Assembly (NCBI GenBank): GCA_963169855.1
Contig: CAUJCN010000002.1
Location: 267,288-331,287 of the forward strand
Reading direction: 5' to 3'
Source: Patescibacteria group bacterium
GTDB lineage: Bacteria; Patescibacteriota; Dojkabacteria; J137
Length of the DNA stretch: 64,000 nt
Shown here one piece after another: positions 31,301-45,483 of this stretch; position 1 is the first letter of the stretch, and every line of letters begins with the position of its first letter. A model generated the notes under the pieces. It did not search any database. It worked only from the letters and a program-made list of their open reading frames with translations, and was not told the origin of the DNA. The position numbers and the translations under genes were made by a program.

Positions 31301-32877
31301 CTAATGGATTCTACACAGTCGACATTACTAATCCAGCAACTCCTACTTTAGTACATACTGTCGCGGGCTTAGGAGGAGCTCCAGTAACTCCAGAAATCAG
31401 TGGAAAAAACCTGTATCTATTCGGAACAACTGGTGTTGGATTAAGAGTTTACGACATATCTAGTCCTGCTGTACCACAGTTTGTCGGAACAACTTCAACA
31501 GGATTTCAAATCCCTTCAGGAAAGATTCAAGGAAGATATGCCTATGCTTCTGACACAACAAACACCGCACTTCGGGTATTAGATCTTGGTGGAGCTTACG
31601 TTCAGCAGTTAGAAGCTAGCGGAGTTGAAACCGATAGTGTTGTGGCAAGAGGAGATGTTACTGCAAATAGCGGTATATTTAAGAACGGAATTAGTGTAAG
31701 TAACTCAATGAATGTACTAGGTGATTCAAATGTTAGAGGGAAACTAACAGTTGGATTAAATAATGCTGGTCCGGCTTCCGGAGTATTCCAAGAAGGATCT
31801 GGATACGCATTCTCTGTAATGGCTGGACCAAACCCAGTATCTACAGAAAACGCGATTGCCGCGTTTACAAACCTAAACCCAGCCAACTCTTTGAACAATA
31901 CCGTAATGAGACTAAGCATGGGAGCTACTCCTACTGGAGGAAACACAAACCCAAGATTTATTAGATTCTTTGCAGGATTATCTACAGGAGACACAGGAGG
32001 AACTGCAGTTGGAAGTATTAGTTTGAATGGTGCTTCCGGAGTATCATTTAATACATCTGGAGCTGACTTTGGAGAATACTATACAATCGTTGACGATGCA
32101 CAGGTTGGGGAAATTGTAGCTGTAACAAGAGATGGAAACCGAAGAGGAGTAAAAGGAGAAAAGATCCTAGGAGTTGTTTCTGATACTGCAGGTTTCGTTG
32201 GAAACAGTATCGAATATACTTCTGAAGGAGAAATTCCAGCTGATCGAAAGATTGTAGGATTGTTAGGACAAATGAAAGTTAAAGTAAACGGCGAGTCTGG
32301 AGCAATTGAAGCAGGAGACTTTGTAGCACTATCCTCTACTGCTGGAGTTGGAATGAAAGCTACTGCAAACGGAATGGTATTAGGGAAAGCTATGGAATCA
32401 TCAACTTGCGATACAGCTGGGTGCGAAAGCACAATTATGATTGCTGTACAGCCAACTTGGTATGTTCCAGAATTAGAGGGATTATTAATGGGAGAATCGA
32501 ATGGTGACTCTGAAGAATCAGATACACCTATATCATCTATTTCTATGGAACAAATTGTAAGTTACTTAACCGAAAATACCTTAGAAATTTTAAAGACAAA
32601 CAACTTAACTGTAAACTCAAGATTCAATTTAAACGGCAGTCTTTACCTTAGTGGAAACAATACTGGAAGAACTGTAATTCCTGTTGGTCAAACATCTGTT
32701 ACAGTTAACTTTGCTTCGGTGTTCGAAGGTTTGCCAAATGTTGTATTAACTCAGAACAGCTTTATTGAGGGAAAGTACAGAGTAACTAATGTAACAAATA
32801 CTGGATTTACAATTGAACTAGAAAATATACAGGTTTCTGATGTAGAATTTACGTGGTTAGGTTATGGTACATTATGA
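25378..32877 (+). CDS. giant cell-surface protein: Hep_Hag (YadA-head-like) repeats + three LVIVD beta-propeller blocks + phage-tail-fibre-like intramolecular chaperone domain + H-type-lectin-like C-terminus
   Basis: 2499-aa uninterrupted ORF, Gly/Ser/Thr/Asn-rich.
- Hep_Hag-like 'NSVAIGTSVSATAQSAIAMGANSTASGQSSTAIGFFNNVSGFNSTAVGFNN', seen twice.
- Duplicated module '(S/R)IYFD..TN.F.CSENGGAYFDCFG' at 27185-27265 and 28056-28133.
- More than 20 LVIVD-type blades, e.g. 'GRYAYTANDNSSITIFDITNPSAPVLIST'.
- Three homologous spacer modules, e.g. 'HGIETTSILAHSVESGQLNVDG', 'NGVETSTLVAHSAQAGQLVVQ' and 'GGAYVQQLEASGVETDSVVARG'.
- C-terminal 'GADFGEYYTIVDDAQVGEIVAVTRDGNRRGVKGEKILGVVSDTAGFVGNS' is Peptidase_S74/G2-like.
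- C-terminal 'FASVFEGLPNVVLTQ...YRVTNVTNTGFTIELEN...FTWLGYG' is H_lectin-like. Confidence 0.85.
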   Translation: MNSEPEIYDTNLCAIDFSSTAPNNLLTEIIGVRQVLVSGVCNGVNQDAPAGPDEDEQTLSFNPLTNTLSILNGNSVVIPLGTGTTVQNNSYPTNISNPISGLTQVNTGNGLMGGPITSSGTIEVDAPTCAGTDKLQWNGTAFVCSPDIMGGGVNSVTASGPILSSGGTTPNISLAACPAGQSYVHDGSNWVCQAAPTAITVQNGLTDIGGGIVELGGSNPLLHDTDIISDGNNLNFTGTGRFGIGTNTPEFKLDIDNDGVNGGGIIARGTFGSGATLTTNGAGERLIWDPATGAFRAGGVSGNQWDLANIGIYSFAAGQDNLVSGSHSAAFGSGNNVAGNNSFASGTANSVLSNFSNVFGLANTVNGAFATAMGLSSSATGTAAFASGSSAAATGNNSVAIGTSVSATAQSAIAMGANSTASGQSSTAIGFFNNVSGFNSTAVGFNNQLNSDNGFAFGYQNTQAAAIGDAYLFGLANTANSGTAVLVGTNNVANGGTSVVAGFQNTTNGQFSNIFGRLSTTTGDFSSAFGTGLTSQGYSQTVLGRYNVASGTQGSLVQTDEGLVFGNGTSLGNESNAFSISWQGRTTMYGTSAIVPVSPAAAGSIYFDANTNTFQCSENGGAYFDCFGGSAAGVTDINGESGSITLSGDSPITVGNVGPAFSVGLAPCASNQTYVYVAGNWLCSDENLLYYDESNNVPGVEAAATGTNAVAIGDSATAGGNFSTAIGWATSANGFRSQAYGMANTAGATATNSQLFGFNNNIDTFDTVSVGWSNTSTNGGELNIFGRNNTVNGADSTVVGYNNTTTFGFSEQYLYGSNLTSSADNTHVFGNGITNNVANSLMVGPNSSNILSMLSTGEMGFGNIDPTSRVDISGALTMRGMPAPGLSPLGQGRIYFDSTANEFLCSENNGAYFDCFGAAAGVTSVTAGLGMVNSGTASDPILDVQAVNAVRIDATNDAVMFGGPVNSGLAPLIENTQVPQAGFSLAFLGNTAGDMFGIGTNSTGTNLNERLDVVGNIENIADVSLNPEFITTTATASSPTSIQVVGNRAYVTNQSSSNIQAFDVSDPSTPTSEYIIGTNSQSLNFIASSGRYIYGAGRTSGVFQVIDTYNNGVAFNTVKGTLVFTGFQITGIAQSGNNVIVILDDLAAGNNDFLAIVDVSNPSYPRETGRIAFGVNTNPNAVDVQGGIAYVALSSPTNQVRAVDVNVTEAPTLYPVYSAPICNASNTIKVYGKFAFVGCVGSAQISIIDISNPNVAAPATVATINAGGPVSEVEVSGRYLFATVAGIDELRMWDIRLPSSPTLIGNVSTGGTTPSSLDVSGRHVYVTNQVTNTMAVIDIHGIETTSILAHSVESGQLNVDGETNLFGRVNIASNASVGSNLHVGGDVGVTGNISTLINGSMTPSRIGNLDLAPGNNTDFVLNGNYAYIIDQTGSALRVINISNPALPVAVGVPISTGLGSSPRSIAMAGRYAYTANDNSSITIFDITNPSAPVLISTFAIPTTTGLREIIATDRYLYATGLTSNAVFAIDVSNPRAPRIVSTVTVCTDPTNLAMQEKYLVVGCSQAIADNVQIWDYSNILSPSFVSSISVAAPGPLAVVDLDIQGNFIYTVTTNGIQIHNISTITTPVTDFASGTFFGGAPVVMSSVLANGRYVYATMGNGPAGNAVWFAVDITSSVLPRIVSATFSTTAMHNRALIVRGKNVYTVNNNPLSNSIEIFDVNGVETSTLVAHSAQAGQLVVQNDASIVGNLTVAGGTTFAGNVGVNGDATINGQLNVTGRNPVSVGLTNVGMSPSAVTTSGRYLYMGSFTGGRIFDISDPTAPILLSSPAMPTTSRAIIQGHYIYTSFGTTFTLSSIANPNTPVVLSNLTLSVANRAFDIQGKYAYMMKSNGEMDIIDISSTQTMNIISSTMISPGTMNDIKVRGRYVYITHPTSTSLIIYDISNPLAPVSVGSVVLPSVGNRIALRESYAYVTHTNGFYTVDITNPATPTLVHTVAGLGGAPVTPEISGKNLYLFGTTGVGLRVYDISSPAVPQFVGTTSTGFQIPSGKIQGRYAYASDTTNTALRVLDLGGAYVQQLEASGVETDSVVARGDVTANSGIFKNGISVSNSMNVLGDSNVRGKLTVGLNNAGPASGVFQEGSGYAFSVMAGPNPVSTENAIAAFTNLNPANSLNNTVMRLSMGATPTGGNTNPRFIRFFAGLSTGDTGGTAVGSISLNGASGVSFNTSGADFGEYYTIVDDAQVGEIVAVTRDGNRRGVKGEKILGVVSDTAGFVGNSIEYTSEGEIPADRKIVGLLGQMKVKVNGESGAIEAGDFVALSSTAGVGMKATANGMVLGKAMESSTCDTAGCESTIMIAVQPTWYVPELEGLLMGESNGDSEESDTPISSISMEQIVSYLTENTLEILKTNNLTVNSRFNLNGSLYLSGNNTGRTVIPVGQTSVTVNFASVFEGLPNVVLTQNSFIEGKYRVTNVTNTGFTIELENIQVSDVEFTWLGYGTL

Positions 32878-33561: not shown

Positions 33562-34017
33562 CTACACTTGAATACCGTAAGCCAATTTTAATTCTACTGG
33601 TAGATTGTAATCTGCTATCCAGACTCTTCTGTCTCTTTTTTCGATTTTTACAGGTAATTTTAGAGGTTCTGGTGTACCAAATTTAAATAGTGTTGCGTAT
33701 CTTTTCCCTGACATTCTTTTAGTAACTCTTTCAACATGAGCTTCATCTACCATCCCTATTTCTTCCATAACATTCAAAAAAATATCTCTAATTTGATCAG
33801 GATGTATGATTTCAAGAAATTCTACTTCTGTGACTGGAATTCTGCCAACAACTGGACCTCCGGTTTCTTTAATGTAAATATAATCTCCAGCATTCAATTT
33901 TTTATAAGGAGCAATTCTGTTATAACTCCATTTAATATCTAAAGTTTTCTCTCCGTTCATCATAAGATCTATGTAATCTCTGCTTCGATTTCTGGAATAA
34001 ATTGCTAAATGATTCAT
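33562..34017 (-). CDS. ASCH (PUA-like) domain protein
   Basis: 151 aa. 'DLMMNGEKTLDIKWSY...LNAGDYIYIKETGGPVVGRIPVTEVE' resembles the ASCH beta-barrel (GxKxxExR-like motif). Confidence 0.45.
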   Translation of the reverse strand: MNHLAIYSRNRSRDYIDLMMNGEKTLDIKWSYNRIAPYKKLNAGDYIYIKETGGPVVGRIPVTEVEFLEIIHPDQIRDIFLNVMEEIGMVDEAHVERVTKRMSGKRYATLFKFGTPEPLKLPVKIEKRDRRVWIADYNLPVELKLAYGIQV

Positions 34018-34018: not shown

Positions 34019-34264
34019 CTATTTGAACTTAATATTATCTTGTATTATTTTAATTCTTTCGTGCAACTCTTGCATACGAATTGAAAAATCTACTGCAGAT
34101 CTATTTTCTACGCTTATACTAGCCATTGCATTCCCTATTTGACATGACTTATGAATATCGTGACCTTCTAATAAACCTGAAACAAATCCCGATCTCCACA
34201 TATCTCCTGCTCCAGTTGGGTCCACAACTCTTGTATTGAAAGCAGAATTTCCATCGTATTAGTC
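34019..34264 (-). pseudogene. remnant of a PfkB-family carbohydrate kinase (C-terminal ~80 codons only)
   Basis: Contains PfkB signature 2, '...NSAFNTRVVDPTGAGDMWRSGFVSGLLEGHD...' (DTxGAGD). Only about 33 nt separate it from the next gene, so the N-terminal ~220 aa of a normal PfkB kinase are absent. Confidence 0.55.
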
Positions 34265-34837
34265 TTCAAAAATACGTCTGTACTCTTTTGCAACCAATCT
34301 TCTCATTAACTCGGCTTTGCTTATATCAAGTTCTTCACAAAGTTGTTCTAGTTGTTTTAGAGTTGTTGATCTTAAAATAATGTTGAATCTTTTTTTTGGA
34401 GGTTCAAGATTTTCTATGTATTTTTCCAATACGAGTGCCAAATCTTTTACTGTCTTATAGGTTTTTACTGTAATCATATCTTCACCATATGAAAGCAAGT
34501 TATCTGGGAAATTTTTATACTCTTCTTCTCTTATGACACAAATGACAGGAACTTTATTTTCCAATGCCATTATTGTTTGCAAGAAAACAGTCCTCGATTT
34601 TTCAGAGAACTCCGCTACAATAAAATCAACAGATCTTATAAGTTTATTTGTCCCATCTACAAGTGTTTTCATTTTTGCTTCGAGATCGCTTTGCTCCATT
34701 GGATAATTATCAACTAACCACGGCTGATACATTTCTAATCCCATACCTCTTAAAGTAGAAGCAATAGTTTTGTATGTATCGATATTTCTATCTAGGTTTT
34801 TAATTGTAGCTACTAAAGCAACCTTATTTGGTCTCAT
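34259..34837 (-). CDS. nucleoside 2-deoxyribosyltransferase-like domain fused to C-terminal ribbon-helix-helix (CopG/Arc-like) domain
   Basis: 192 aa. The N-terminus 'KVALVATIKN...LVDGTNKLIRSVDFIVAEFSEKSRTVFLQTIMALENKVPVICV' resembles the NDT/flavodoxin-like nucleotide-binding fold. The C-terminus 'FNIILRSTTLKQLEQLCEELDISKAELMRRLVAKEY' is an RHH motif. Confidence 0.4.
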   Translation of the reverse strand: MRPNKVALVATIKNLDRNIDTYKTIASTLRGMGLEMYQPWLVDNYPMEQSDLEAKMKTLVDGTNKLIRSVDFIVAEFSEKSRTVFLQTIMALENKVPVICVIREEEYKNFPDNLLSYGEDMITVKTYKTVKDLALVLEKYIENLEPPKKRFNIILRSTTLKQLEQLCEELDISKAELMRRLVAKEYRRIFED

Positions 34838-35645
34838 CTTTATAAAAGTAATTAAATATTAGATAGTTATAGAGTCTATGTGGAAGAAATCTTTTAGCCC
34901 ATAAGATTCTTCTGTCTCTTTTCTGAAAAAAGTAGTTATCTCTTGGATTATTCATTAACCAGATTAACTCTCTAGCAGCTTGCTCTGAAGTAACATAATC
35001 CTTAAAAAAGAATCTAAAACGTCTTTTCCAAGATTCATATAAAGTTGAGTAAGCTGTTTGTGCAATGTTACCACTTTCCTTAATATTTTTTCCAAAACTG
35101 CTATAAACACTTCCTGGCGAAAATATACTGATTTGAATTCCGAAACCTCTTACTTCATTTCTTAGTACGTTACTTATCTTATCCAAAGCACTTTTCGTTG
35201 CTGCGTAAAATCCCAGAGTTGGTGTATCGACAACTGATCCAATCGAACTCACATTAATAATATGTCCGCTATTACTTTCTCTCATTGAAGGTAGTACTTT
35301 TTGAATTAGCTGAATGGGTGCAATAACATTAACGCTTAATTGCGACTGCATTTCAGCAAGATCCATATCCTCTACAGTACTACGAAAGGCAAAACCTGCA
35401 TTGTTTATTAAAATATCTATTTTGTTATAATCTTTTAATACTTTATCTAGATTTTTAGAAGCTCCAACAATATCATTCAGGTCGATTTCAAAGAATTTAT
35501 AATTCTTTACTGAAAATTCTTTTATATTGTTCCTTCCTATTCCTAGAAATAAGTAGTCAGAAAATTGCGAACACGCAATCCTTATGAAAGATTCACCTAT
35601 TCCACTACTTACTCCTGTTATTAATACAACTTTTGAGTAACTCAT
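34824..35645 (-). CDS. short-chain dehydrogenase/reductase (SDR)
   Basis: 'VVLITGVSSGIGES' (TGxxxGIG) and 'YAATKSAL' (YxxxK). Confidence 0.8.
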   Translation of the reverse strand: MSYSKVVLITGVSSGIGESFIRIACSQFSDYLFLGIGRNNIKEFSVKNYKFFEIDLNDIVGASKNLDKVLKDYNKIDILINNAGFAFRSTVEDMDLAEMQSQLSVNVIAPIQLIQKVLPSMRESNSGHIINVSSIGSVVDTPTLGFYAATKSALDKISNVLRNEVRGFGIQISIFSPGSVYSSFGKNIKESGNIAQTAYSTLYESWKRRFRFFFKDYVTSEQAARELIWLMNNPRDNYFFQKRDRRILWAKRFLPHRLYNYLIFNYFYKDETK

Positions 35646-36574
35646 AAACTTTTAGCTAGATCGTAAAGTATTCCACTTGAAATATTATTATTACTTGGAA
35701 CAATTATTCTACAATTTAGATACTCTGAAATCTGAAATATATTCATTAAGGCTTTATCAGCCGCCCACATATAGTATGGTTCTTTTTCATACATTGGCAT
35801 TCTATCTTCGTAGGAAAGTGCGATAATCTTATCGTACAAAGGTCTTAGCTTTGCTACATCTATTGAGTAAGGATGATCTCCTTGCAATCCTTCTCTATCT
35901 TCCAAATCCACATTCATAGTTTCTAGAAATTCAATAATGTTTGTAGTTCCATAAACAATCACCTTTGGGTTTCTTTTAGATTCACCTAAACCTTTTAGTT
36001 CCGTTCTAACATAGTCAATCGCTGTTTGTAATTCTTCTGCAGCAGGATGATGACTTTCTGAAAATTCTTCCTGCATAAAATAGGTTCCGCTTTTGAATAA
36101 GTATGTTTCGTGAATCTTGGTATTTTCTCCTATTACAACTTGAACACTTCCTCCTCCAATATCTGCTACAGCTATCTCTTGATCTGGAAAGTCTTTAGAA
36201 ACAGATTCAAATAAAAGTCTTGCTTCATCTTTTTGAGATAGTACTTCTAATTTAATTCCAGTAGATTCTTCTATTCTATTTAAAACTTCTTCAGAATTAG
36301 TGGCTTTTCTAATCGCTTCAGTAGTAACTGCTAAATACTTCTCTACTTTATATTCAGTCATTTTGTCTTTGAACATGTTCAAAGCTTCTATTGTTTTAAG
36401 GATTGATTTCTCGATAATCATGTTATTCGTTTTAGGTAAATCTCTACCCATTACGGTTAATTGTTTATCTTTGTACAGCACTTTAGAATTAAAGTTTTCA
36501 TCGAATTCTCGAATTTCGAATTTCGATTTTAGAGTCCCAACATCAATGACTGCGACAATTTTTTTAGATTCCAT
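35642..36574 (-). CDS. Ppx/GppA family phosphatase (exopolyphosphatase / pppGpp phosphohydrolase-like)
   Basis: 310 aa with an actin-like ATPase fold: 'VAVIDVGTLKSKFEI' (phosphate 1) and 'IAVADIGGGSVQVV' (phosphate 2). Confidence 0.6.
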   Translation of the reverse strand: MESKKIVAVIDVGTLKSKFEIREFDENFNSKVLYKDKQLTVMGRDLPKTNNMIIEKSILKTIEALNMFKDKMTEYKVEKYLAVTTEAIRKATNSEEVLNRIEESTGIKLEVLSQKDEARLLFESVSKDFPDQEIAVADIGGGSVQVVIGENTKIHETYLFKSGTYFMQEEFSESHHPAAEELQTAIDYVRTELKGLGESKRNPKVIVYGTTNIIEFLETMNVDLEDREGLQGDHPYSIDVAKLRPLYDKIIALSYEDRMPMYEKEPYYMWAADKALMNIFQISEYLNCRIIVPSNNNISSGILYDLAKSL

Positions 36575-37865
36575 AGAGCATTCTTTTTAATAAATAAAAT
36601 CTTTTCCCTATATCCGCGTTTAGATTTGAACCATAAACAGCATTCAAAACTACATCAGGAAATAGATTGAAAGTTATTCTAAAATCTAACCCTCGGTCGA
36701 TGGTAATTACTTCAAACTTTGTATTGCTGAATTTTATTAATTTCAAAGCACTATTCAAATTTTCCAATCTATTGGGATTCTCTTTGGATTGAAGACATAA
36801 AACAACCTGATCTCCTATATAGTTCTCCCATTCCAGAACATCCTCAATAATATCTCTGACATCAAGACCAAAATATAGAGAGCTTCTTTTAAGGAATTCT
36901 TTGTCAAACTGTTCGTAATTGTCTCTATTTATATGCAGAAAAACTGATGAATTTTCCGGTATATCAGATTTTATTTCTGCCTGAATTTCTTGGAATCCAG
37001 TTAATGTAGAAGCAAAAATATGAACCTGTACGGGAATATGAGAATTGTACTCATTTAAATACTTTAGTACAGATTTCGTTGTATTTAAGTCTGTTTTTGG
37101 ACCAATTACACCTTCAGAAATATCAACATGTACAAGATCTACTCCACTTTGAAGAGCTTCATTTAAAGATTCGCGGTTTTTTTGATTAATGTCTAATGCT
37201 ACAAATCCAATTCCATTTACAACAGGTTTATCCGTATATCCTAACTTATGTACTAATTGTTTTAATTTTGTATAATTTATATTCTCAGTCTTACTTGCAT
37301 TGTCTGATTTGACAGAAGACTGAACATCAAAACCAATTACATTTAACTCTAGATAATTATCAATATTTTTAGCTCCAATTCCTCCAGCTAAAAATATTTT
37401 ATTTGAATCTATTTTTTGTAAAAGACTCATAGCATTTTCTTTACCAATTTCTAATCCTGTTCCACCCATAAATGATTTATCAAGGATTACATAATCTGCA
37501 TCATCTGATATAGTAAAACCTAATGATTGTGTAGATACGACTTGGAAAATTATTAATCCTTGCTCGAATTCTGTTCGCAGTGCCCTTATTTGTGGGTACG
37601 AATCTTCATAGTGTAGCTGTACACCATCAAACTCAAACTCCTTCACCAGTTTCTTAATTACAGAAATATCTCTTTCTTTTGTTACCAAAATAGATTTAGA
37701 TTCTTTATAGTAATTTTTAAGTTCTTTTGTGCAAGCTTTAATTTGATGCATTCTTAAAAAATCATTGTCAGAGATAAGGTGATAACCTAAAAATGGCACC
37801 TGCATTCTACCTAGCGTCCTAGTTTCATATATATTTTTAACATTACATACTTTTAATTTTTTCAT
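36564..37865 (-). CDS. two-TIM-barrel fusion protein: phosphoribosylanthranilate-isomerase-like N-half + ribulose-phosphate-3-epimerase-like C-half
   Basis: 433 aa. The N-half 'DGVQLHYED...DYVILDKSFMGGTGLEIGKE...FLAGGIGAKNIDNYL...GFDVQSSVKS' resembles TrpF. The C-half 'GVDLVHVDISEGVIGPKTDLNTTKSVLKYLNEYNSHIPVQVHIF' resembles RPE. Confidence 0.4.
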   Translation of the reverse strand: MKKLKVCNVKNIYETRTLGRMQVPFLGYHLISDNDFLRMHQIKACTKELKNYYKESKSILVTKERDISVIKKLVKEFEFDGVQLHYEDSYPQIRALRTEFEQGLIIFQVVSTQSLGFTISDDADYVILDKSFMGGTGLEIGKENAMSLLQKIDSNKIFLAGGIGAKNIDNYLELNVIGFDVQSSVKSDNASKTENINYTKLKQLVHKLGYTDKPVVNGIGFVALDINQKNRESLNEALQSGVDLVHVDISEGVIGPKTDLNTTKSVLKYLNEYNSHIPVQVHIFASTLTGFQEIQAEIKSDIPENSSVFLHINRDNYEQFDKEFLKRSSLYFGLDVRDIIEDVLEWENYIGDQVVLCLQSKENPNRLENLNSALKLIKFSNTKFEVITIDRGLDFRITFNLFPDVVLNAVYGSNLNADIGKRFYLLKRMLYGI

Positions 37866-38551
37866 TCAAAAATATTAATATTTAAGAAGTTAGCATCGTA
37901 TTTAGCTTTAAAGAAAACAGCGTTGATATTATCGGAAAACTCTCTATCAATCAGGTCATCGTCTCCTATGTAACTTACAGATTTGAATTTAGTTTTCCCA
38001 GTACTTTTTAATAACTGATCAAAAGCAAATCGATTCGGTTTATCTACCAATACTCTATTCTTATACATATCTTCTTCTCCAATAATTATTTCGAAAAAGT
38101 TAATTAATCCTGTTTTATACAAATACGCTGAAATGATTGTTTTCCTTGATGATGAAATTATTGCCAAAACATTTTCAGTATCTTCAACCAAAGTTTCTAG
38201 AAAATCAATAATTCCATTTCCCAATCTTGCAACTGCGTTTTCAGTCTTATCTTTAAGAATTGATGTGATAGTATGGCTTTCTTTTATATCCATAATTCCT
38301 TTAGCGATACTATTAATATCGGTTGTGTTAAAGTAACTTATAAGACTCTCGAAATCTTCTCTGCTTCTTGTTATTCCAGATTGGATTCTTCTATAGCTAT
38401 CGAATCTTTCTTTAAGACCTTCTTCATAAGGAAGAAATGCATTAAGTCCTCCGTGGATATTTAATTGTTTCATTGTCTTTTCCCAACCTTGTCGGTGGTA
38501 GTCAGAACTTTTTGCGATTGTTCCATCAAAATCGAATATTATTAGGTTCAT
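37862..38551 (-). CDS. HAD-superfamily hydrolase (phosphatase)
   Basis: 'MNLIIFDFDGTIAKS' is HAD motif I (DxDGT). 'SYIGDDDLID' is a motif-IV-like element. Confidence 0.75.
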   Translation of the reverse strand: MNLIIFDFDGTIAKSSDYHRQGWEKTMKQLNIHGGLNAFLPYEEGLKERFDSYRRIQSGITRSREDFESLISYFNTTDINSIAKGIMDIKESHTITSILKDKTENAVARLGNGIIDFLETLVEDTENVLAIISSSRKTIISAYLYKTGLINFFEIIIGEEDMYKNRVLVDKPNRFAFDQLLKSTGKTKFKSVSYIGDDDLIDREFSDNINAVFFKAKYDANFLNINIFE

Positions 38552-39855
38552 ATATCTAAAATAACTGAGTCTGAATAAGCATTGGTCATTAACTTCTCAA
38601 TTCTTCTTTTCATTTTGTCGAATGTTCCGTGTTTATTTGTATAACTGTCTTTAGTATATGTACTTACATAATCTGATAAATATCCGAACAAACTATTTGC
38701 TGCCACCAAAGGATTTATTCCTCCATGATCTTTCCTTGTTAGATGATGATACCTATGACTAACCTTGAAGGTGTTACATGCAAGAAAAATTTCTTCAATA
38801 TTTTTAGGTAAGAAATTTACCAGGATATCTACGGTTCTACCAGTTGATATCGAGTCGTCAAGAATCAGTACTCCAGTTGAAGATTTCAAATGTCCTCCCT
38901 GAAAAAATGGAGAAATAGAGTACTTAATACTGTCTACATATCTACTTCCTGTATTTGAGTAATTCGATAGGTTCAAAGTTATAAAGTTAAGTTGCGATTT
39001 TCCTACAAATTCACGATACGCATTTATAATAAATGGTAGTTCTATCCCTCCGTACTCTACGCCAACCATTAGTGTGTCAGGACGAATAAATTCATTAGAA
39101 ACTTTTTTCGCTAGGTGAATCATTTTTGCAAAGTTATCCGCTTCTCTGCTCTTTCTAATTAGTTTATGTTGAATCTTTTTATTTCTTTCTACAGAAGGTA
39201 GTCTTTTAGATGTATATTCATAAACCGCTTCAATAACAGAAATAAAGTTTTCAATTCCATCTGGTAAATAAATTTTTTTAGTCAAATATGTTTTTGTAAA
39301 CGAGAATTCTATAACTCCAATTAGAGACAAAAGTTTATTATATTCATTCACTGATAAAGATTCTTCATCTATATAACCCAATTCTCTTGAGATTTGGTTT
39401 AATGCATAAAGCGAAATAAACAAGTAATTTTTTAGATTGTCCAAAAATCCTAGGTACAATATAAAGTTTTCATCTATACTAACTGACTTTAAAGTGTTTA
39501 TGTAACTTTTTAATGAGTCGAATACTTTCTCAAGCTTGATTTGATTTGCTTCTTTAACCATACCAATATAGTATTCTAAGCCCCGCAATAAGTACTTTTT
39601 ACCCAATTGAATAGTTCTATTTTTATACTTCAGACCGAAGAAGAAATCTTTAAGCACTGTATCTCCTATATACTGTAACTCTCTTTCCTGAATAACAAAT
39701 GCACCGCTGTCATAAACAAAAGAAGGGGTCTTTATTGAGTCACTTGCGGATGAGATTGAGCTTTCGATTGTTGAGTAGCGCTCTTTATAACTACTCCAAC
39801 ATACTTCAACAATTTCTGAAGGTATGTTTATTTTATGTCCTCTGATGTTTTTCAT
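38548..39855 (-). CDS. protein with C-terminal type-I phosphoribosyltransferase domain and uncharacterised ~280-aa N-terminal domain
   Basis: PRTase PRPP-binding motif 'GVLILDDSISTGRTVD' preceded by 'LMVGVEYGGIELPFI'. The N-terminal domain has no recognised motif. Confidence 0.55.
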   Translation of the reverse strand: MKNIRGHKINIPSEIVEVCWSSYKERYSTIESSISSASDSIKTPSFVYDSGAFVIQERELQYIGDTVLKDFFFGLKYKNRTIQLGKKYLLRGLEYYIGMVKEANQIKLEKVFDSLKSYINTLKSVSIDENFILYLGFLDNLKNYLFISLYALNQISRELGYIDEESLSVNEYNKLLSLIGVIEFSFTKTYLTKKIYLPDGIENFISVIEAVYEYTSKRLPSVERNKKIQHKLIRKSREADNFAKMIHLAKKVSNEFIRPDTLMVGVEYGGIELPFIINAYREFVGKSQLNFITLNLSNYSNTGSRYVDSIKYSISPFFQGGHLKSSTGVLILDDSISTGRTVDILVNFLPKNIEEIFLACNTFKVSHRYHHLTRKDHGGINPLVAANSLFGYLSDYVSTYTKDSYTNKHGTFDKMKRRIEKLMTNAYSDSVILDI

Positions 39856-39974
39856 AGGAAATATACCTTCTTATACATTTTTTGTATAAAATTTTTTATG
39901 TATTATACATGCTTTAGAAATATATGCAATACGCAAATCCTTTAAATACTGCAATTTTCGTAAATTTGGAAGAT

Positions 39975-40847
39975 TTATAAGTTGTTAGTCAAAATGTGAA
40001 GATTTTGCACAGATTGAATTACTTGGTTCGAACCAATATCAAATTCTACCCAGAAGTTTAAAACCATAACTTCTTTCACTATCTGAAAAAGCACCAAAAG
40101 CTCTTCAATATGCGAAACATTAAACAAAGTTTTCAGCTGAGAAAGCAAATCAGATTCATAAATTCCTATTTGACCAAAGTTTTTAAAAAATTGAGCAAAA
40201 TCTATGACACCTATCGAATTTACAGCATTAGCCCAATCAATTATCCTAATATCATTACCGTTGAATAAAATATTCTGATTTTCAAGATCATTATGATCTA
40301 GCACTGTAGGGAAGTTTTTGGTTTTTAAAGATTCAAATTTTCTCAGAATCCACTTCTCTTTTTGAAAAAGAGATTCAAGATTTATTTCTTCTCCATAATT
40401 CTTTAGATTTTTCAGAGGATTTTGTAACATCCAAACAATGTGTTCATCAAACTTAACGGTTTTACTTTTTAAATTGTCCTTAAAGTATTTGTACTTGTTG
40501 ACAATCCAATTGAATAACAAATTCTTAGTGTGTTCTGAATAGTATTCAGGCTCCCAAAAACCCTTACAGAACTCTATTATTAACACATTCTCATCTCCAA
40601 AGATAAACGCAGGAGTATTTAAATTATTATGACTTAGATACTTTTGATAAATTTCTACTTCTCTTTTTTGCCAACCATGAAAAAACTTAGCTATGAATTC
40701 TTGTTCTGGTATTGAGACCTTAAATGTATCAGCTGTCTTGCTAGTTTCCTGTCTGGAAAGACTAGTATTTAAAGGATTAATGTTGAATGGAATTCTTCTC
40801 TCCGTAGATAACTTCGTTAAATAGGAAAGGAATTTATCTGACTCCAT
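39975..40847 (-). CDS. kinase-like fold phosphotransferase (APH/choline-kinase family)
   Basis: 'VLDHNDLENQNILFNGNDIRIIDWANA' corresponds to the HxDxxxxN...IDxE catalytic and Mg loops. Confidence 0.6.
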   Translation of the reverse strand: MESDKFLSYLTKLSTERRIPFNINPLNTSLSRQETSKTADTFKVSIPEQEFIAKFFHGWQKREVEIYQKYLSHNNLNTPAFIFGDENVLIIEFCKGFWEPEYYSEHTKNLLFNWIVNKYKYFKDNLKSKTVKFDEHIVWMLQNPLKNLKNYGEEINLESLFQKEKWILRKFESLKTKNFPTVLDHNDLENQNILFNGNDIRIIDWANAVNSIGVIDFAQFFKNFGQIGIYESDLLSQLKTLFNVSHIEELLVLFQIVKEVMVLNFWVEFDIGSNQVIQSVQNLHILTNNL

Positions 40848-41679
40848 ATTTTTTCAATATTCTCCCGATCGGAGTTTCTCCAGCTACAGATAAATTTGTG
40901 TACTTTTCAATTAATTCATCGTACCAAGTCTGCTCTTCCCACTCTTCCACACCAGTATATTTGTTTTTTAAATATTCCAGATTACTTATGATTACATCGT
41001 AACCAGCATCGTTGCAAACTCCTGCTTCTCCATATAATCTTGTGTAATTTACTAATACTAATGGAACATGAACTATTCCTTCAGGAAAATTTCGAGCAAG
41101 CTGCAAACTATAATCGTAATCTTCAAAAAGAGATAAGCCTGTATCCCATCTTGCTTTACTTTGAGCTGTCTTTTTTAGAACCATTCCGTTGGGATCTCCT
41201 TCAAATGTATGATTCCATAGATTTGAACTATTAGGATCAGCTTTATATGAAGATTCTTCTTTTAGTAATCGAGGGATTTCATTTTCTAGGATCATAATGC
41301 TAAAGTTCATATTAGGATAAGCAATTACAGCTCTAGAATCTGATCTTAGTTTGTTTACCATTATGCTTAACCAGTTAGTCAAAACTGTATTGTCACTATC
41401 TAAATAAGAAATGTATTCTCCTGTTGCATGTTCTAATCCAAATTGCCTGGCACCGGCTGCTCCCTTTGACCCCTTATTTGTAAGATATTTAATTCGAGTA
41501 TCAATAACGAATTCTCTCATTAATTTACGAGTATCGTCTGTAGAATTATCATCAACTATAAGAAGCTCCCAATTAGTATAAGTTTGTTGTTGGACACTAA
41601 GAATTGATTTCCAAATAGAAAATGCTCTATTAAATGTAGGCATTATTATCGAAACCTTTTCATCAATTGAATCTGCCAT
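40834..41679 (-). CDS. glycosyltransferase family 2
   Basis: 'VSIIMPTFNRAFSIWKSILSVQQQTYTNWELLIVDDNSTDDT' (GT-A with DxD). Also 'YLDSDN'. Confidence 0.8.
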   Translation of the reverse strand: MADSIDEKVSIIMPTFNRAFSIWKSILSVQQQTYTNWELLIVDDNSTDDTRKLMREFVIDTRIKYLTNKGSKGAAGARQFGLEHATGEYISYLDSDNTVLTNWLSIMVNKLRSDSRAVIAYPNMNFSIMILENEIPRLLKEESSYKADPNSSNLWNHTFEGDPNGMVLKKTAQSKARWDTGLSLFEDYDYSLQLARNFPEGIVHVPLVLVNYTRLYGEAGVCNDAGYDVIISNLEYLKNKYTGVEEWEEQTWYDELIEKYTNLSVAGETPIGRILKKYGVR

Positions 41680-41721
41680 TTTTAATTTTAATCACCCTAA
41701 TTATACATTAATTGTATAAAA

Positions 41722-42420
41722 TCACATTTCTAATATTTGGATATTTCTTGGATAATATAGGTCAACGTATTTTCTTATAGGAATTCCCCTATTTTCAATT
41801 TCCTCAAGATCTGAATCATTTAGTAGACCATAAAGCGCTTCTGCGATCTCAGAATCAGAATCTGCTGTATGAACTAAATTTCTAATAAGAAGAGGTACCG
41901 TATTAGAGTATTCTTCTTCTGTCATACTTTTCAATTCCTCTTTGTCATAATATGGTAAAGGATCCATAAAAGCGCCTCGCAATCCCGTAGGGACAACTCT
42001 CACATTTCCACTATTATCTTTTTGTAAAGGCAAGCCTTTTAAGCTTTTAAGCACTTCATCTAGCTCTCTTTTAGATGAATCTGATTTTATGAGAAAGAAC
42101 ATTAAAGGGCCGTTATATTCTGCCATCATTATTGGATATTGGCGTTTTCCTCGAAACTCTCTATAAAAAATGTCTAGGATACTATTTGAATTGTAAGGAG
42201 GACTCGAAATATCTCTAAAAAAACTTTTTACTATAGTTACTTTGTTTAATTTATCCTTTATTAATTTGGGAATTTCAAGGGTTTGTAATAATACAGCATT
42301 GTTTCCGCTTAATAGACTTTCTACAACAGGAACCAAACCTTGAGATAATGCGTCTGGTTTTAAGATCATCAATCCGTAACTTTCCTCTTTTTCTTGTTCT
42401 AACTTAAGGTTTTGATCCAT
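41722..42420 (-). CDS. nucleoside-diphosphate-kinase-like protein
   Basis: 'GLMILKPDALSQGLVPVVESLL' resembles the NDK N-terminus (IKPDG..RGLVGEII). 'NLVHTADSDSEIAEAL' resembles the catalytic-His region NIIHGSDSVESAEKEI. At 232 aa it is longer than a canonical NDK. Confidence 0.4.
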   Translation of the reverse strand: MDQNLKLEQEKEESYGLMILKPDALSQGLVPVVESLLSGNNAVLLQTLEIPKLIKDKLNKVTIVKSFFRDISSPPYNSNSILDIFYREFRGKRQYPIMMAEYNGPLMFFLIKSDSSKRELDEVLKSLKGLPLQKDNSGNVRVVPTGLRGAFMDPLPYYDKEELKSMTEEEYSNTVPLLIRNLVHTADSDSEIAEALYGLLNDSDLEEIENRGIPIRKYVDLYYPRNIQILEM

Positions 42421-42550: not shown

Positions 42551-42958
42551 ATGAAAAAAGTAGGTAAAATCACTTATATTGCAGATTCGAAGTTTGCAAT
42601 TGCAGAAACTACAGAATTTTTAATTCTTGGTTCCGAGGTATTGGTTTGCAACGAAATCAACACTGGCGGAGAAAACGCATTCAAAATTCCAAAAGGAAAG
42701 TTGAAAGTTGTAATGCTTCAAGATGAAAACAAGTATTTGTTATCAGTAGTTTCTAAAGATAAAGCTGAAGATTCATCTGATAATCAAAGTTTAGCAAGAA
42801 CACTAAGCATTTTTGCTTCTCTATTTCCAAACAATGCTGGCGAGGTAGAAATTCCAACTGGAGAACTTGCTGATTACAGTGCGCAATTAGACGCAACAGG
42901 GAGAGAAAATATTAAGATCAATCCTAAAGTTAGCGTTGGGAACGAAATCTACTTTTAA
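42551..42958 (+). CDS. hypothetical protein
   Basis: 135-aa ORF. No motif. Its stop overlaps the start of the next ORF (ATGA at 42955-42958). Confidence 0.4.
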   Translation: MKKVGKITYIADSKFAIAETTEFLILGSEVLVCNEINTGGENAFKIPKGKLKVVMLQDENKYLLSVVSKDKAEDSSDNQSLARTLSIFASLFPNNAGEVEIPTGELADYSAQLDATGRENIKINPKVSVGNEIYF

Positions 42959-43587
42959 TGGATTTAGATATAAAGTTTCTTCCACAAGTTGAGTACTTTT
43001 TCTCAGAACTAGGAGAAACGCTCATACTATCTCTGAGTTTAATCACTTACAAACACAAGGTGAATATTCTTGGTGTAACTGTTGATTTAGAGGGCGAAAA
43101 ATTCAAAATTGCCGAATCAATCAGCTACATAAGACGCTACATCGATCCAAAGACATCAGCAAATTTGAACTTTAGAATTGGGATCTCAGATAAATCTGGA
43201 ACTATAGGAAGCTTGATTCAGGAATTTAAAGCGAAAATACTTTCAGAAAGTTCAAAAATTATTCTCAACAACCAAATTTCAGACGAAATAAAATCGAATC
43301 TGTATCTTCTGAAAGACGAATACAAAGATAAAATTCTTTCTCAAACCAAATTGATATCTGACAATATCCGAGGAAGGTTTAAAATTGATTACGATCCAAT
43401 AAAAGGATTTTTCGACAAATTTAATAAGGAAAGCATCTTTATAGAAAAGTCTTTTGTGATTCCAAACCGTGATTCAGTTGAGTTGAATGTAGACAACTTT
43501 TTGATGAATATTCTTTCTGAAATAATCTTCCAGCCAGCGAAATCCGAAAGCGTGTATCAGCATCTCACAATCCAAGTAACTAAATAG
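42958..43587 (+). CDS. hypothetical protein
   Basis: 209-aa ORF coupled to the previous one. No motif recognised. Confidence 0.4.
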   Translation: MDLDIKFLPQVEYFFSELGETLILSLSLITYKHKVNILGVTVDLEGEKFKIAESISYIRRYIDPKTSANLNFRIGISDKSGTIGSLIQEFKAKILSESSKIILNNQISDEIKSNLYLLKDEYKDKILSQTKLISDNIRGRFKIDYDPIKGFFDKFNKESIFIEKSFVIPNRDSVELNVDNFLMNILSEIIFQPAKSESVYQHLTIQVTK

Positions 43588-43589
43588 TA

Positions 43590-43613
43590 AGAGGACGGTT
43601 TTACCCGTCCTCT
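43590..43613. terminator. perfect 9-bp stem hairpin between convergent genes
   Basis: 'agaggacgg-ttttac-ccgtcctct'. The flanks are not strongly T-rich. Confidence 0.4.
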
Positions 43614-43694
43614 AGAAAAGGTCTTTGATCTAAAAATTGAAAAAAGAAGAATATATTAAGTAGTAATAATGCTATTTCATTATCGTGGAGATGA

Positions 43695-44027: not shown

Positions 44028-44299
44028 GGTAACCTCCTATGCTTCTTCCGGATGAAGACAGCTTCTACCCTACCGTATAGAGAAAAAGCTGCCTTCATCT
44101 TTTCAATTTTAGATTGTTAAAGACCACTTAGTTTGCTAAGCGCAGATAGCTTTTGGAGCATATCTATTGGTACATCTGGTGGCTTTTCAGCACACAAAAT
44201 GTATATACTAATTATATCATATTTGTTGCCGAATTTAAGTGTCAATAGTAATTCTTTGCCTCCATTTTCTTGACCAGATAAGGCTGCACTCAATATAAT

Positions 44300-44641: not shown

Positions 44642-44651
44642 GAAAATTATA

Positions 44652-45287: not shown

Positions 45288-45483
45288 ATTACAAGGACAG
45301 GGTCCGCTTGTATGCCACTTCTCTACCTGTCTCTGACAGGCGCCACGGCAGCATAGATCTATAATGAATTATACTATATGCCAATACAAATCTAAGCATT
45401 TTACTTAACCCTTCTGTAAAAGGGCTTTAAAAATTCACTCAAATACTGTAAAATCCATATGCTTACTTAAGTGAAGGATTGGC

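What the first reader, a model, noticed from the sequence alone, without database searches (positions are those of the whole stretch)
34259..42420. Nine-gene minus-strand cluster of nucleotide- and sugar-modifying enzymes of unusual composition
The genes lie contiguously on one strand, several with overlapping or abutting ends:
- NDK-like protein.
- GT2 glycosyltransferase.
- APH/ChoK-fold kinase.
- Unknown domain fused to a type-I PRTase.
- HAD phosphatase.
- PRAI-like + RPE-like double TIM-barrel.
- Ppx/GppA phosphatase.
- SDR.
- NDT-like domain fused to RHH.

The combination of a PRPP-using enzyme, a phosphatase, an epimerase/isomerase, an oxidoreductase, a kinase and a glycosyltransferase is reminiscent of pathways that build unusual pentose or sugar donors from PRPP. 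The decaprenyl-phosphoarabinose logic is an example. It could equally be a nucleotide salvage route in an auxotrophic symbiont. No characterised pathway has this gene set.
Basis: inference. Interest (0 to 1): 0.6.

Follow-up and report, generated by a model that had tools for sequence, protein, structure and literature searches.

The report
Orphan PRPP-based sugar-amine operon
This is a real, self-regulated gene cluster found only in a few tiny symbiotic (Patescibacteria) bacteria that probably attaches activated ribose to an unknown amine and reworks it into an unusual sugar-like unit; its product is unknown and no described pathway matches it.

Summary
The nine minus-strand genes are there as described. 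Seven domain calls are solid; the RPE-like and NDK-like calls rest on weak matches and motifs.

The cluster is larger than reported. It also holds an ASCH-domain gene (33562-34017) and the remnant of a PfkB kinase (34019-34225).

A six-gene core keeps the same order in about 15 independent Patescibacteria lineages: N-domain+type-I PRTase, HAD, TrpF-like+RPE-like double barrel, Ppx/GppA, SDR, MilB/Rcl-like+RHH. Three of these families exist almost only in this cluster.

A palindrome, TATACA-N5-TGTATA, lies upstream of the PRTase block and of the GT2-kinase block. It occupies the same places in other lineages and overlaps a -10 element. It is probably the operator of the RHH protein, whose sensor domain has lost the catalytic Glu.

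Distant relatives fuse the PRTase to HAD or to a TrpF-like domain.

Best reading (about 0.45): PRPP-dependent N-phosphoribosylation of an unknown amine, Amadori rearrangement, C3 epimerisation, ketoreduction and dephosphorylation. The product is then passed to a kinase / nucleotidyltransferase / GT2 module.

Housekeeping salvage is unlikely. The product and the role of Ppx/GppA are unknown.

The parts
33562..34017 (-). ASCH-domain protein (151 aa). An ASCH gene accompanies the cluster in most lineages.
   Evidence: Orthologues lie next to the PRT gene in L004, L009, L017 and L025. The family is homologous to the Pfam-recognised ASCH proteins of L005 and L007 (hhalign probability 99.7%, E 2e-26).
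34019..34225 (-). Remnant (68 aa, C-terminal part) of a PfkB-family kinase; a pseudogene.
   Evidence: It is called as a 68-aa PfkB fragment. The sequence carries DPTGAGD. tblastn matches the intact 301-313 aa PfkB found at the same position in L005, L009, L017 and L020.
34259..34837 (-). Probable pathway regulator: a MilB/Rcl-like (NMP N-glycosidase fold) sensor domain fused to a CopG-type ribbon-helix-helix domain.
34824..35645 (-). Classical short-chain dehydrogenase/reductase. Proposed to reduce the C2 ketone of the rearranged pentulose.
   Evidence: PF00106 E 1.4e-34. TGxxxGIG, NNAG and YxxxK are visible in the translation. Conserved in all complete loci.
35642..36574 (-). Short (two-domain) Ppx/GppA-family phosphohydrolase. 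It is the most conserved protein of the cluster. Its role is not resolved.
   Evidence: PF02541 E 5.5e-37. TIGR03706 gives 146 bits, below the cut-off of 307. Identity across lineages is 52-73%, against 30-45% for its neighbours. DVGTLKS and DIGGGS motifs are present. It is absent from the distant variant L015, which has a Ham1p-like gene two genes upstream on the opposite strand, with a Methyltransf_33 gene in between.
36564..37865 (-). Fusion of a TrpF-like (phosphoribosylamine Amadori isomerase) barrel and an RPE-like (pentulose-5-P 3-epimerase) barrel.
   Evidence: PRAI E 1.2e-15. hhalign to T. maritima TrpF gives E 4e-6, with Cys7 and Asp129 on the catalytic Cys7/Asp126 and the GGTG motif kept; the Arg36 loop is missing. 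RPE: weak hits, with H246/D248/H282/D390 aligned to the RPE catalytic residues. There are 31 family members in 5.8e9 proteins.
37862..38551 (-). HAD-superfamily phosphatase of the beta-PGM / IA type. Proposed to remove the 5-phosphate.
   Evidence: HAD_2 E 9e-16 and TIGR02009 E 3e-9. DFDGT and GDDD motifs are present. It always follows the PRT gene directly. HAD is fused to the PRT in distant relatives P0107 and P0115.
38548..39855 (-). Family-specific N-terminal domain (an alpha/beta part plus a four-helix bundle, residues 1-235) fused to a type-I phosphoribosyltransferase domain.
   Evidence: AF2 pLDDT 87.6. In the Foldseek PDB search all 50 matches shown are HGPRT, OPRT, PyrR or APRT, at weak significance (best E 3e-3, none at or below 1e-3). 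It has the canonical DD-S-x-T-G-x-T PRPP loop and a disordered loop at 298-305. The N-domain profile finds only 45 proteins in 1.84e9, including HAD-PRT and PRT-PRAI fusions.
39872..39888 (.). Operator 1: palindrome TATACA-N5-TGTATA, 17 nt upstream of the PRT start codon.
   Evidence: There are only two exact copies in 64 kb, against 0.05 expected; both are in the cluster. The same palindrome lies upstream of the PRT gene in more than 10 independent lineages.
39898..39910 (-). Palindrome ATGTATAATACAT containing TGTATAAT. It may be an extended -10 promoter element just upstream of operator 1.
   Evidence: Read directly from the sequence. Not tested further.
39975..40847 (-). APH/choline-kinase-fold kinase, translationally coupled to GT2.
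   Evidence: Choline_kinase E 2e-6, APH E 4e-5, RIO1 E 2.5e-5. HNDLENQN (HxDxxxxN) and IDW motifs are present. It pairs with GT2 in WIN and nine other lineages, in either orientation relative to the core.
40834..41679 (-). Soluble family-2 glycosyltransferase.
   Evidence: PF00535 E 2e-33. The nearest curated families are TuaG, PglI and WcaA, all below cut-off.
41702..41718 (.). Operator 2: the same palindrome, 23 nt upstream of the GT2 start. Its right half forms TGTATAAT.
41722..42420 (-). Divergent NDK-like protein (232 aa); an accessory gene.
   Evidence: There is no significant family hit. NDK hallmark motifs are present in order. The orthologue is found only in L004. Both genomes lack the PfkB + guanylate-kinase-like pair seen elsewhere.

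Best explanation
This is a specialised, horizontally patchy operon of Patescibacteria. It is controlled by its own ligand-sensing repressor and probably builds an unusual pentose-derived unit from PRPP.

**Proposed route.** The gene content is shown. The order of steps and the chemistry are inferred.
1. The N-domain+type-I PRTase transfers 5-phosphoribose from PRPP to the nitrogen of an unknown amine, probably an aromatic, heterocyclic or nucleotide amine.
2. The TrpF-like barrel carries out an Amadori rearrangement to a 1-amino-1-deoxy-ribulose-5-phosphate derivative.
3. The fused RPE-like barrel epimerises C3.
4. The SDR reduces the C2 ketone, giving an N-substituted aminopentitol phosphate.
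5. The HAD phosphatase removes the 5-phosphate.
6. The APH/ChoK-like kinase, an RfaE-II-like nucleotidyltransferase (present in several lineages) and the GT2 then re-activate the unit and pass it to, or decorate, a glycoconjugate.

**Accessory functions.**
- Phosphohydrolases (Ppx/GppA, replaced elsewhere by Ham1p or NUDIX) would trim a nucleotide-like intermediate.
- NMP/NDP-kinase-like proteins (NDK-like here; Gmk-like or Adk-like elsewhere, with PfkB) would either phosphorylate a nucleotide-like intermediate or supply PRPP.

**Regulation.** The MilB/Rcl-like+RHH protein binds the TATACA-N5-TGTATA operators. These overlap the promoters of both blocks. The protein would respond to a 5'-phosphoribosyl ligand.
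For: - **Conserved order.** The six core genes keep their order, with overlapping ends, in about 15 lineages whose proteins are only 30-45% identical.
- **Cluster-restricted families.** The PRT fusion, the double barrel and the regulator are essentially confined to this cluster: 19, 31 and 35 hits in 5.8e9 proteins.
- **TrpF-like domain.** It keeps the catalytic Cys and Asp and the phosphate-binding GGTG, but lacks the anthranilate-binding loop.
- **RPE-like domain.** It keeps the four metal/catalytic residues. It is fused directly after the domain whose product would be a ribulose-5-P analogue.
- **PRT domain.** It has a canonical PRPP loop and a type-I fold.
- **Rosetta-stone fusions in distant relatives.** HAD + N-domain + PRT occurs in P0107 and P0115. 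N-domain + PRT + PRAI (with KICG and GGTG) occurs in P0111, followed by a 2-hydroxyacid-type reductase.
- **Cousin cluster.** L032 pairs HAD-PRT with PfkB and a GlmS-C/NagB-II-like SIS isomerase, a family that does amine-sugar isomerisation.
- **Shared regulation.** The operator lies upstream of both the PRT block and the GT2-kinase block in the window. It lies upstream of every separate transcription unit in other lineages.
- **Operator and regulator co-occur.** The one variant without the regulator (L015) also lacks the operator.
- **Sensor domain.** It has the MilB/Rcl fold, with the nucleophile Glu replaced by Gln and the phosphate-binding Ser kept.
- **Intact enzymes.** All enzymes show intact catalytic motifs.
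Against: - No step has been tested biochemically, and the amine acceptor is unknown.
- The RPE-like assignment rests on weak scores (E 0.003-0.04).
- The role of the most conserved protein, Ppx/GppA, is not explained by the linear scheme.
- The nucleotidyltransferase is missing in the window and in many lineages. No transferase for a CDP- or ADP-activated alditol is present.
- GT2 and the kinase are absent within 10 kb in four lineages (L011, L012/13, L028, L014).
- A TrpF-like barrel might instead isomerise ribose-5-P, ribose-1,5-bisphosphate or PRPP itself. The PRT+HAD pair also fits O-ribofuranosylation of a glycan.
Confidence: 0.45

Rival explanations
1. Cell-envelope polymer pathway of the ribofuranose / pentitol-phosphate type, as in the Haemophilus influenzae b capsule. 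PRT+HAD would add ribofuranose from PRPP to an O-acceptor and then remove the 5-phosphate. The double barrel would convert ribose-5-P to ribulose-5-P and xylulose-5-P. The SDR would reduce this to ribitol- or arabinitol-5-P. The nucleotidyltransferase would make the CDP/ADP-alditol, and GT2 would extend the glycan.
For: - PRT-like domain plus helical bundles next to a HAD phosphatase is the CriT/CrpP arrangement (PMC10299916).
- HAD-PRT fusions exist in relatives.
- GT2 resembles the polymer glycosyltransferases TuaG, PglI and WcaA.
- An RfaE-II/TagD-like nucleotidyltransferase is present in five lineages.
- The cluster lies in variable islands, as surface-glycan loci often do.
Against: - There is no TagF/LicD-type alditol-phosphate transferase, flippase or polymerase in any locus.
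- The PRT keeps the vicinal DD motif of N-PRTases, not the split D/E of CriT. Its structural neighbours are HGPRT, OPRT and PyrR, and Bcs3 is not among the top hits.
- The TrpF catalytic pair and the PRT-PRAI fusion point to an N-glycoside.
- The nucleotidyltransferase is not part of the core.
Confidence: 0.2
2. Biosynthesis of a modified nucleotide or a nucleoside-analogue small molecule (signal, antimetabolite or cofactor-like compound), using histidine/coformycin/riboflavin-like logic. A base or nucleotide amine is N-phosphoribosylated, its triphosphate is trimmed, the ribosyl is rearranged and reduced to a ribityl-like chain, and the 5-phosphate is removed.
For: Many nucleotide-handling parts recur, often by non-orthologous replacement.
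- NDK-like, Gmk-like or Adk-like kinases.
- Ppx/GppA, Ham1p or NUDIX phosphohydrolases.
- A PfkB ribokinase/nucleoside-kinase-like protein.
- ASCH, a family that includes N4-acylcytidine amidohydrolases (my own knowledge).
- A MilB/Rcl-like sensor.
- An MFS transporter beside the cluster in L011.
- An N-domain-PRT relative next to PurA in L034.
Against: - GT2 and the sugar-type kinase/nucleotidyltransferase triad are not explained.
- There is no cyclohydrolase, synthase or tailoring enzyme typical of known nucleoside antibiotics or flavin/pterin routes.
- This largely overlaps the best explanation and differs mainly in the fate of the product.
Confidence: 0.2
3. Ordinary nucleotide salvage and phosphate housekeeping genes that happen to be clustered in a reduced genome.
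For: - PRTase, kinases, Ppx/GppA, HAD and an IMPDH gene 8 kb away could all serve salvage.
- Ppx/GppA is far more conserved than its neighbours.
Against: - The core families are found in only 8 of 185,579 species genomes and in a few dozen proteins among billions.
- All curated equivalog cut-offs are missed.
- There is a dedicated repressor and operator.
- The cluster lies beside restriction-modification and transposase genes.
- TrpF/RPE, SDR and GT2 have no salvage role.
Confidence: 0.07
4. Anti-phage defence or counter-defence system that depletes or modifies nucleotides.
For: - Several loci lie in defence islands.
Against: - There were no significant PADLOC matches.
- The NDT-like domain lacks the catalytic Glu and is fused to a DNA-binding RHH.
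- Six to twelve metabolic enzymes with intact active sites are not typical of defence systems.
Confidence: 0.04

Closest known systems
TrpD/TrpF steps of tryptophan biosynthesis and HisG/HisE/HisA steps of histidine biosynthesis
   Same: - PRPP-dependent N-phosphoribosylation is followed by an Amadori rearrangement in a (beta-alpha)8 barrel.
- The TrpF catalytic Cys/Asp pair and the GGTG phosphate site are conserved.
- A phosphohydrolase in the cluster could parallel HisE.
   Different: - The PRTase is type I with a new N-terminal domain, not a TrpD or HisG fold.
- The anthranilate-binding loop is missing.
- There are no other trp or his genes.
- The isomerase is fused to an RPE-like barrel and followed by a reductase and a phosphatase.
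Riboflavin pathway steps: ribosylamino-pyrimidine reduction (RibD) and HAD dephosphorylation (own knowledge)
   Same: The logic is the same: an N-(5-phosphoribosyl)amine is converted to an N-pentityl amine and then dephosphorylated by a HAD enzyme.
   Different: - Here the ribosylamine would come from PRPP, not from GTP.
- Rearrangement and reduction are split between a TrpF-like domain and an SDR.
- There are no lumazine or riboflavin synthase genes.
Glycan phosphoribosyltransferase + phosphoribosyl phosphatase pairs (CriT/CrpP of Hib Bcs3; PMC10299916)
   Same: A PRT-like catalytic domain with helical-bundle domains works with an adjacent or fused HAD phosphatase. PRPP is the pentose donor.
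   Different: - The canonical vicinal DD motif is kept.
- The closest structures are nucleobase PRTases.
- The cluster has a TrpF-like isomerase and no TagF-like polymerase.
Decaprenyl-phospho-arabinose pathway
   Same: PRPP donor, then dephosphorylation, then redox chemistry at C2 involving an SDR.
   Different: - There is no UbiA-type membrane PRTase, no PAP2 phosphatase and no FAD oxidase.
- The proteins are soluble.
- Isomerase/epimerase barrels are used instead of oxidation-reduction.
ADP-heptose pathway (GmhA, HldE, GmhB, HldD)
   Same: The fuller versions of the cluster hold the same enzyme classes: an isomerase, a PfkB kinase, a HAD phosphatase, an RfaE-domain-II-like nucleotidyltransferase, an SDR and a glycosyltransferase.
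   Different: - The chemistry is pentose/PRPP-based.
- The isomerase is TrpF/RPE-like, not SIS.
- PfkB is a pseudogene and the nucleotidyltransferase is absent in this window.
MilB/BlsM CMP hydrolases and Rcl/DNPH1
   Different: The nucleophile Glu is Gln. The domain is fused to an RHH DNA-binding domain, so it is probably a sensor rather than an enzyme.

Membership tests
TrpF / PRAI (PF00697) | Score above the family threshold | tested here: met
   58.1 bits against a cut-off of 22.7, E 1.2e-15. PDB TrpF hits down to 6.6e-7.
TrpF / PRAI (PF00697) | Catalytic general base Cys7 and general acid Asp126 (T. maritima numbering), plus the GGxG phosphate site | tested here: met
   Cys7 (nearly invariant), Asp129 (invariant) and GGTG align to them.
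TrpF / PRAI (PF00697) | Anthranilate-carboxylate-binding Arg36 loop, and association with trp genes | tested here: not met
   The loop falls in a 7-residue gap of the family. No trp genes occur in any locus.
Ribulose-phosphate 3-epimerase (PF00834) | Score above the family threshold | tested here: not met
   16.1 bits against a cut-off of 21.1. TIGR01163 E 0.003. PDB 2fli E 0.044.
Ribulose-phosphate 3-epimerase (PF00834) | His, Asp, His, Asp metal/catalytic tetrad | tested here: inconclusive
   The invariant H246, D248, H282 and D390 align to the tetrad over 169 columns, but hhalign gives only E 0.019.
Type I phosphoribosyltransferase | PRPP-binding loop (hydrophobic-DD-hydrophobic-S/T-G-x-T) and the five-stranded PRT fold with a flexible loop | tested here: met
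   The motif is VLILDDSISTGRT with invariant D333/D334/T338. In the Foldseek PDB search all 50 matches shown are type-I PRTases, at weak significance (best E 3e-3). The disordered loop is at 298-305. The Pfam score is below the cut-off (17.8 against 26.3).
Glycan phosphoribosyltransferase (CriT/gPRT type) | Split acidic pair (D680/E818) giving an open active site | tested here: not met
   The vicinal DD is retained. The definition comes from PMC10299916.
Glycan phosphoribosyltransferase (CriT/gPRT type) | Helical-bundle domains and a partner HAD phosphatase | tested here: met
   There is a four-helix bundle at 104-223. The HAD gene follows directly everywhere and is fused in P0107 and P0115.
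Ppx/GppA (PF02541) | Family score and ASKHA phosphate motifs | tested here: met
   128 bits against a cut-off of 27. DxGTxxS and DIGGGS are seen in the translation. The exopolyphosphatase model TIGR03706 (NCBIfam type 'exception') is not reached: 146 bits against a cut-off of 307.
MilB / Rcl / nucleoside 2-deoxyribosyltransferase superfamily | Fold | tested here: met
MilB / Rcl / nucleoside 2-deoxyribosyltransferase superfamily | Catalytic nucleophile Glu | tested here: not met
   It aligns to Gln87, which is nearly invariant.
CopG/Arc/MetJ ribbon-helix-helix | RHH_1 profile match, and binding to a palindromic operator | tested here: inconclusive
   20.7 bits against a cut-off of 20.5. CopG in the PDB at E 0.03. 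A conserved palindrome co-occurs with the gene, but binding has not been tested.
Nucleoside diphosphate kinase | Family profile match and the catalytic His in NxxHxSDS | tested here: inconclusive
   There is no Pfam or NCBIfam hit. There are only local matches at KPD (E 0.005) and at the His motif (E 0.03). The motifs KPD, LRGAF and RNLVHTADS are in order.
Known anti-phage defence systems (PADLOC-DB 2.0) | Match of any cluster protein to a defence model | tested here: not met
   Only a stray DpdC hit at E 0.004 for the HAD protein.
Decaprenyl-phospho-arabinose pathway | UbiA-type membrane PRTase and DprE1-type FAD oxidase | tested here: not met
   No such domains occur among the cluster proteins or in any related locus.

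The most novel reading that the evidence does not exclude
The operon encodes a previously undescribed PRPP-dependent route. A new class of type-I PRTase N-ribosylates a heteroaromatic or nucleotide amine. A unique TrpF-RPE fusion and an SDR convert the ribosyl group into a non-ribo aminopentitol (a 'ribityl-like' side chain). The product is then nucleotide-activated and attached to the cell surface, or used as a new cofactor or signal. Control is by a new type of repressor, built from a catalytically dead NMP-glycosidase domain that senses the pathway's own phosphoribosyl intermediate.
Probability: 0.3. Interest if true: 0.75.

Novelty: new variant of a known kind. Interest (0 to 1): 0.6.

Why it matters
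- Patescibacteria have very reduced metabolism. A 9-12 gene, self-regulated specialised pathway is therefore a notable investment and probably bears on how these episymbionts present themselves to, or act on, their hosts and phages.
- The cluster offers three protein families with no characterised member: the N-domain-PRTase, the TrpF-RPE fusion and the MilB-like-RHH regulator.
- It also offers a ready regulator-operator pair and clear in-vitro experiments.
- If the proposed chemistry holds, it would be a third independent use of the 'PRPP + amine, then Amadori rearrangement' logic known from tryptophan and histidine biosynthesis.

Tried and rejected
- **PADLOC scan** of ten proteins: nothing significant.
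- **Profile-versus-PDB searches.** For the PRT fusion, the regulator and the NDK-like protein they gave only marginal hits. For the ASCH-like family they gave spurious talin hits.
- **NDK homology.** Tests against E. coli Ndk and human NME2 gave only short local matches, so the NDK label stays unproven.
- **Literature.** Four searches found no description of this cluster. A fifth was rejected for syntax.
- **L015.** Its 193-aa protein was tested as a possible regulator homologue and is not one.
- **Source organism.** It could not be named.
- **Short contigs.** Those around P0115, P0116 and P0123 gave little context.
- **Direct repeats** other than the operator look like chance matches in AT-rich coding DNA.
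- **Terminators.** None was detected at the 3' end of the cluster.

Full report
**Observation**

ORF listing confirms nine contiguous minus-strand genes between 34259 and 42420. Six of them (39855 down to 34259) overlap by 4-14 nt. GT2 and the kinase overlap by 14 nt.

The window is a bacterial chromosome. It carries ThrRS, a class II aaRS, PBP2, MraW, iPGM, IMPDH and three tRNAs. The cluster has slightly lower G+C (30.5-32%) than most of the window, which is mostly 34-38%.

**Domain checks**

Pfam and NCBIfam give strong matches for these:
- SDR
- Ppx/GppA
- GT2
- HAD
- the PRAI half of the 433-aa protein

They give weak matches for the PRTase, the APH/ChoK-like kinase, the RPE-like half and the RHH. 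They give none for the 232-aa 'NDK-like' protein.

An AlphaFold model of the 435-aa protein (pLDDT 87.6) shows three parts:
- an N-terminal alpha/beta part
- a four-helix bundle
- a C-terminal domain for which all 50 Foldseek PDB matches shown are type-I PRTases, at weak significance (best E 3e-3)

The PRPP loop VLILDDSISTGRT is invariant in its key residues.

The NDK label rests only on three hallmark motifs in the right order.

**Is it a unit?**

The double-barrel protein has only 31 relatives among 5.8 billion proteins. The PRT fusion has 19 and the regulator 35.

Context was taken from look-ups, a scan of 185,579 species genomes (8 loci, all Patescibacteria: MAGs labelled Saccharibacteria or Woesebacteria, and one labelled only 'Patescibacteria group'; a WWE3 member came from the protein search and contig look-ups) and a metagenome scan (12 loci).

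The order PRT-HAD-double barrel-Ppx/GppA-SDR-regulator holds in every complete locus. In one clade, SDR-regulator is inverted as a separate unit. Protein identities are 30-45%, except for Ppx/GppA at 52-73%.

Accessory genes recur:
- The GT2 + kinase pair occurs in WIN and nine other lineages, in either orientation.
- An ASCH-domain protein occurs in most lineages. The window copy is 33562-34017. Its homology to Pfam-recognised ASCH proteins has hhalign probability 99.7%.
- An RfaE-domain-II/TagD-like nucleotidyltransferase occurs in five lineages.
- A translationally coupled PfkB + guanylate-kinase-like pair occurs in four lineages.

In the window the PfkB gene survives only as a 68-aa C-terminal remnant with the DPTGAGD motif (34019-34225).

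The NDK-like gene occurs only in the window and in L004. These are the two genomes that lack PfkB/Gmk. Two further lineages carry an archaeal-adenylate-kinase-like gene instead.

Several loci lie beside restriction-modification, Fic, RhuM, transposase or KilA-N genes.

**A conserved operator**

The repeat search flagged a shared 27-nt element in the two intergenic gaps of the cluster. Its core is the palindrome TATACA-N5-TGTATA.

It occurs exactly twice in the 64-kb window, against 0.05 expected. One copy is 17 nt upstream of the PRT start and the other 23 nt upstream of the GT2 start.

The same palindrome, exact or with one mismatch, lies 11-90 nt upstream of the PRT gene (203 nt in L011) in these loci:
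- L004
- the L005 group
- L007
- L009
- L011
- L017
- L018 (two copies)
- L020
- L025
- L028

In L014, which lacks the PRT gene, an exact copy lies 270 nt upstream of the HAD gene.

It also lies upstream of the split SDR-regulator unit in L011, L012/13 and L028. L012/13 carry the symmetric variant TATACC-N5-GGTATA.

In many loci the right half reads TGTATAAT (an extended -10). A TTGAyT box sits just upstream. The site therefore overlaps the promoter.

L015 is the one distant variant without the regulator gene, and it has no operator.

This ties the GT2-kinase block to the core. It also supports repression by the RHH protein, although binding itself is inferred.

In the regulator, the Rcl nucleophile Glu aligns to the conserved Gln87. 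The phosphate-binding Ser aligns to Ser81 in the invariant K-S-R. A non-catalytic sensor of a 5'-phosphoribosyl ligand is therefore the likely role.

**Chemistry**

The N-terminal barrel aligns over its whole length to T. maritima TrpF (E 4e-6). Cys7 and Asp129 fall on the catalytic pair, and GGTG is kept. The loop carrying the anthranilate-binding Arg36 is absent.

The C-terminal barrel aligns weakly to RPE. Its invariant H246, D248, H282 and D390 fall on the four RPE metal/catalytic residues.

The TrpF product is a ribulose-5-phosphate analogue, which is the kind of substrate an RPE-like site would take. The fusion therefore makes chemical sense (inference).

A profile of the PRT N-domain was searched against 1.84 billion representatives and found 45 proteins. 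The distant ones are informative fusions:
- HAD + N-domain + PRT (P0107, P0115)
- N-domain + PRT + a PRAI domain with KICG and GGTG motifs (P0111)

P0111 is followed by a 2-hydroxyacid-type reductase.

P0107 is followed by PfkB and by a SIS protein closest to the GlmS isomerase domain and NagB-II. That family does amine-sugar isomerisation.

Together these support the sequence PRPP + amine -> ribosylamine-5-P -> ketosamine -> epimer -> aminopentitol-P -> dephosphorylated product. The kinase, nucleotidyltransferase and GT2 then act as a re-activation and transfer module.

Three things are not resolved:
- the identity of the amine
- the role of Ppx/GppA; L015 lacks Ppx/GppA and has a Ham1p-like gene two genes upstream on the opposite strand, and NUDIX genes sit near the cluster in L028 (which also has Ppx/GppA) and L032
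- the role of the NMP/NDP-kinase-like proteins

Two readings remain open. One is trimming and phosphorylation of a nucleotide-like intermediate, as with HisE. The other is PRPP supply from ribose phosphates, since the PfkB resembles ribokinase and ribose-1-phosphate kinase and the Gmk-like protein weakly resembles PhnN.

**Comparison with known systems**

The closest logic is TrpD/TrpF and HisG/HisE/HisA. The ribosylamino-to-ribitylamino steps of riboflavin synthesis are also similar (my own knowledge).

The PRT + HAD pairing also resembles the glycan phosphoribosyltransferase/phosphatase pairs of capsule synthesis (PMC10299916). However, the vicinal DD motif, the nucleobase-PRT-like structure and the TrpF link argue against simple membership.

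The decaprenyl-phosphoarabinose analogy is loose. No defence-system model matches. No paper describing this cluster was found.

**Verdict**

This is a real, conserved, co-regulated and very rare operon of Patescibacteria with an unknown product. It is built from known superfamilies in a new combination, and it includes three families without characterised members.

Housekeeping salvage is unlikely. The detailed route is a reasoned proposal (confidence about 0.45) that can be tested directly in vitro.

Noticed in passing
window 34019-34225 (-): A 68-aa C-terminal remnant of a PfkB-family kinase (VDPTGAGD...). The intact gene, followed by a guanylate-kinase-like gene, occupies this position in L005, L009, L017 and L020. 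This points to recent gene loss in this genome.
   Followed up: yes
window 25378-32877 (+): A 2499-aa repeat-rich giant protein with faint YadA_head, LVIVD and Peptidase_G2 hits. It is probably a surface protein and is not conserved next to the cluster in other genomes.
   Followed up: no
window 39898-39910 (-): A perfect palindrome, ATGTATAATACAT, containing an extended -10 (TGTATAAT), lies 10 nt upstream of operator 1. It may be the promoter, or a second regulatory site.
   Followed up: partly
L017 775-1833 and 15577-15957; L018 11079-19403; L005 1-4930: The cluster lies between fragments of a type I restriction R subunit in L017. It lies next to a complete type I R-M with RhuM and an AAA_15 ATPase in L018, and next to MTase/Fic/ResIII in L005. 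It appears to travel in variable or defence islands.
   Followed up: partly
L012 7991-8007 and 13612-13628; L013 7991-8007 and 13608-13624: The operator variant TATACC-N5-GGTATA carries symmetric changes in both half-sites. In the same clade, the RHH beta-strand residue equivalent to position 156 is Thr instead of Lys/Arg. This may be protein-DNA covariation.
   Followed up: no
L011 9277-9873 and 10018-11559; L028 13648-14253: An archaeal-adenylate-kinase-like P-loop gene is transcribed divergently from the SDR-regulator unit, across an operator. In L011 it is followed by an MFS transporter.
   Followed up: partly
L032 4937-9358: A cousin cluster holds NUDIX, a HAD + N-domain + PRT fusion, PfkB, and a GlmS-C/NagB-II-like SIS isomerase. 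This is reminiscent of the fructosamine kinase/deglycase pair (FrlD/FrlB).
   Followed up: partly
window 45201-45560 and 45592-46845: There is a divergent tRNA-Leu(GAG)/tRNA-Asp pair, then a 417-aa protein with only weak ATP-grasp matches. Several small ORFs without any family match lie between it and the cluster (42551-45125).
   Followed up: no
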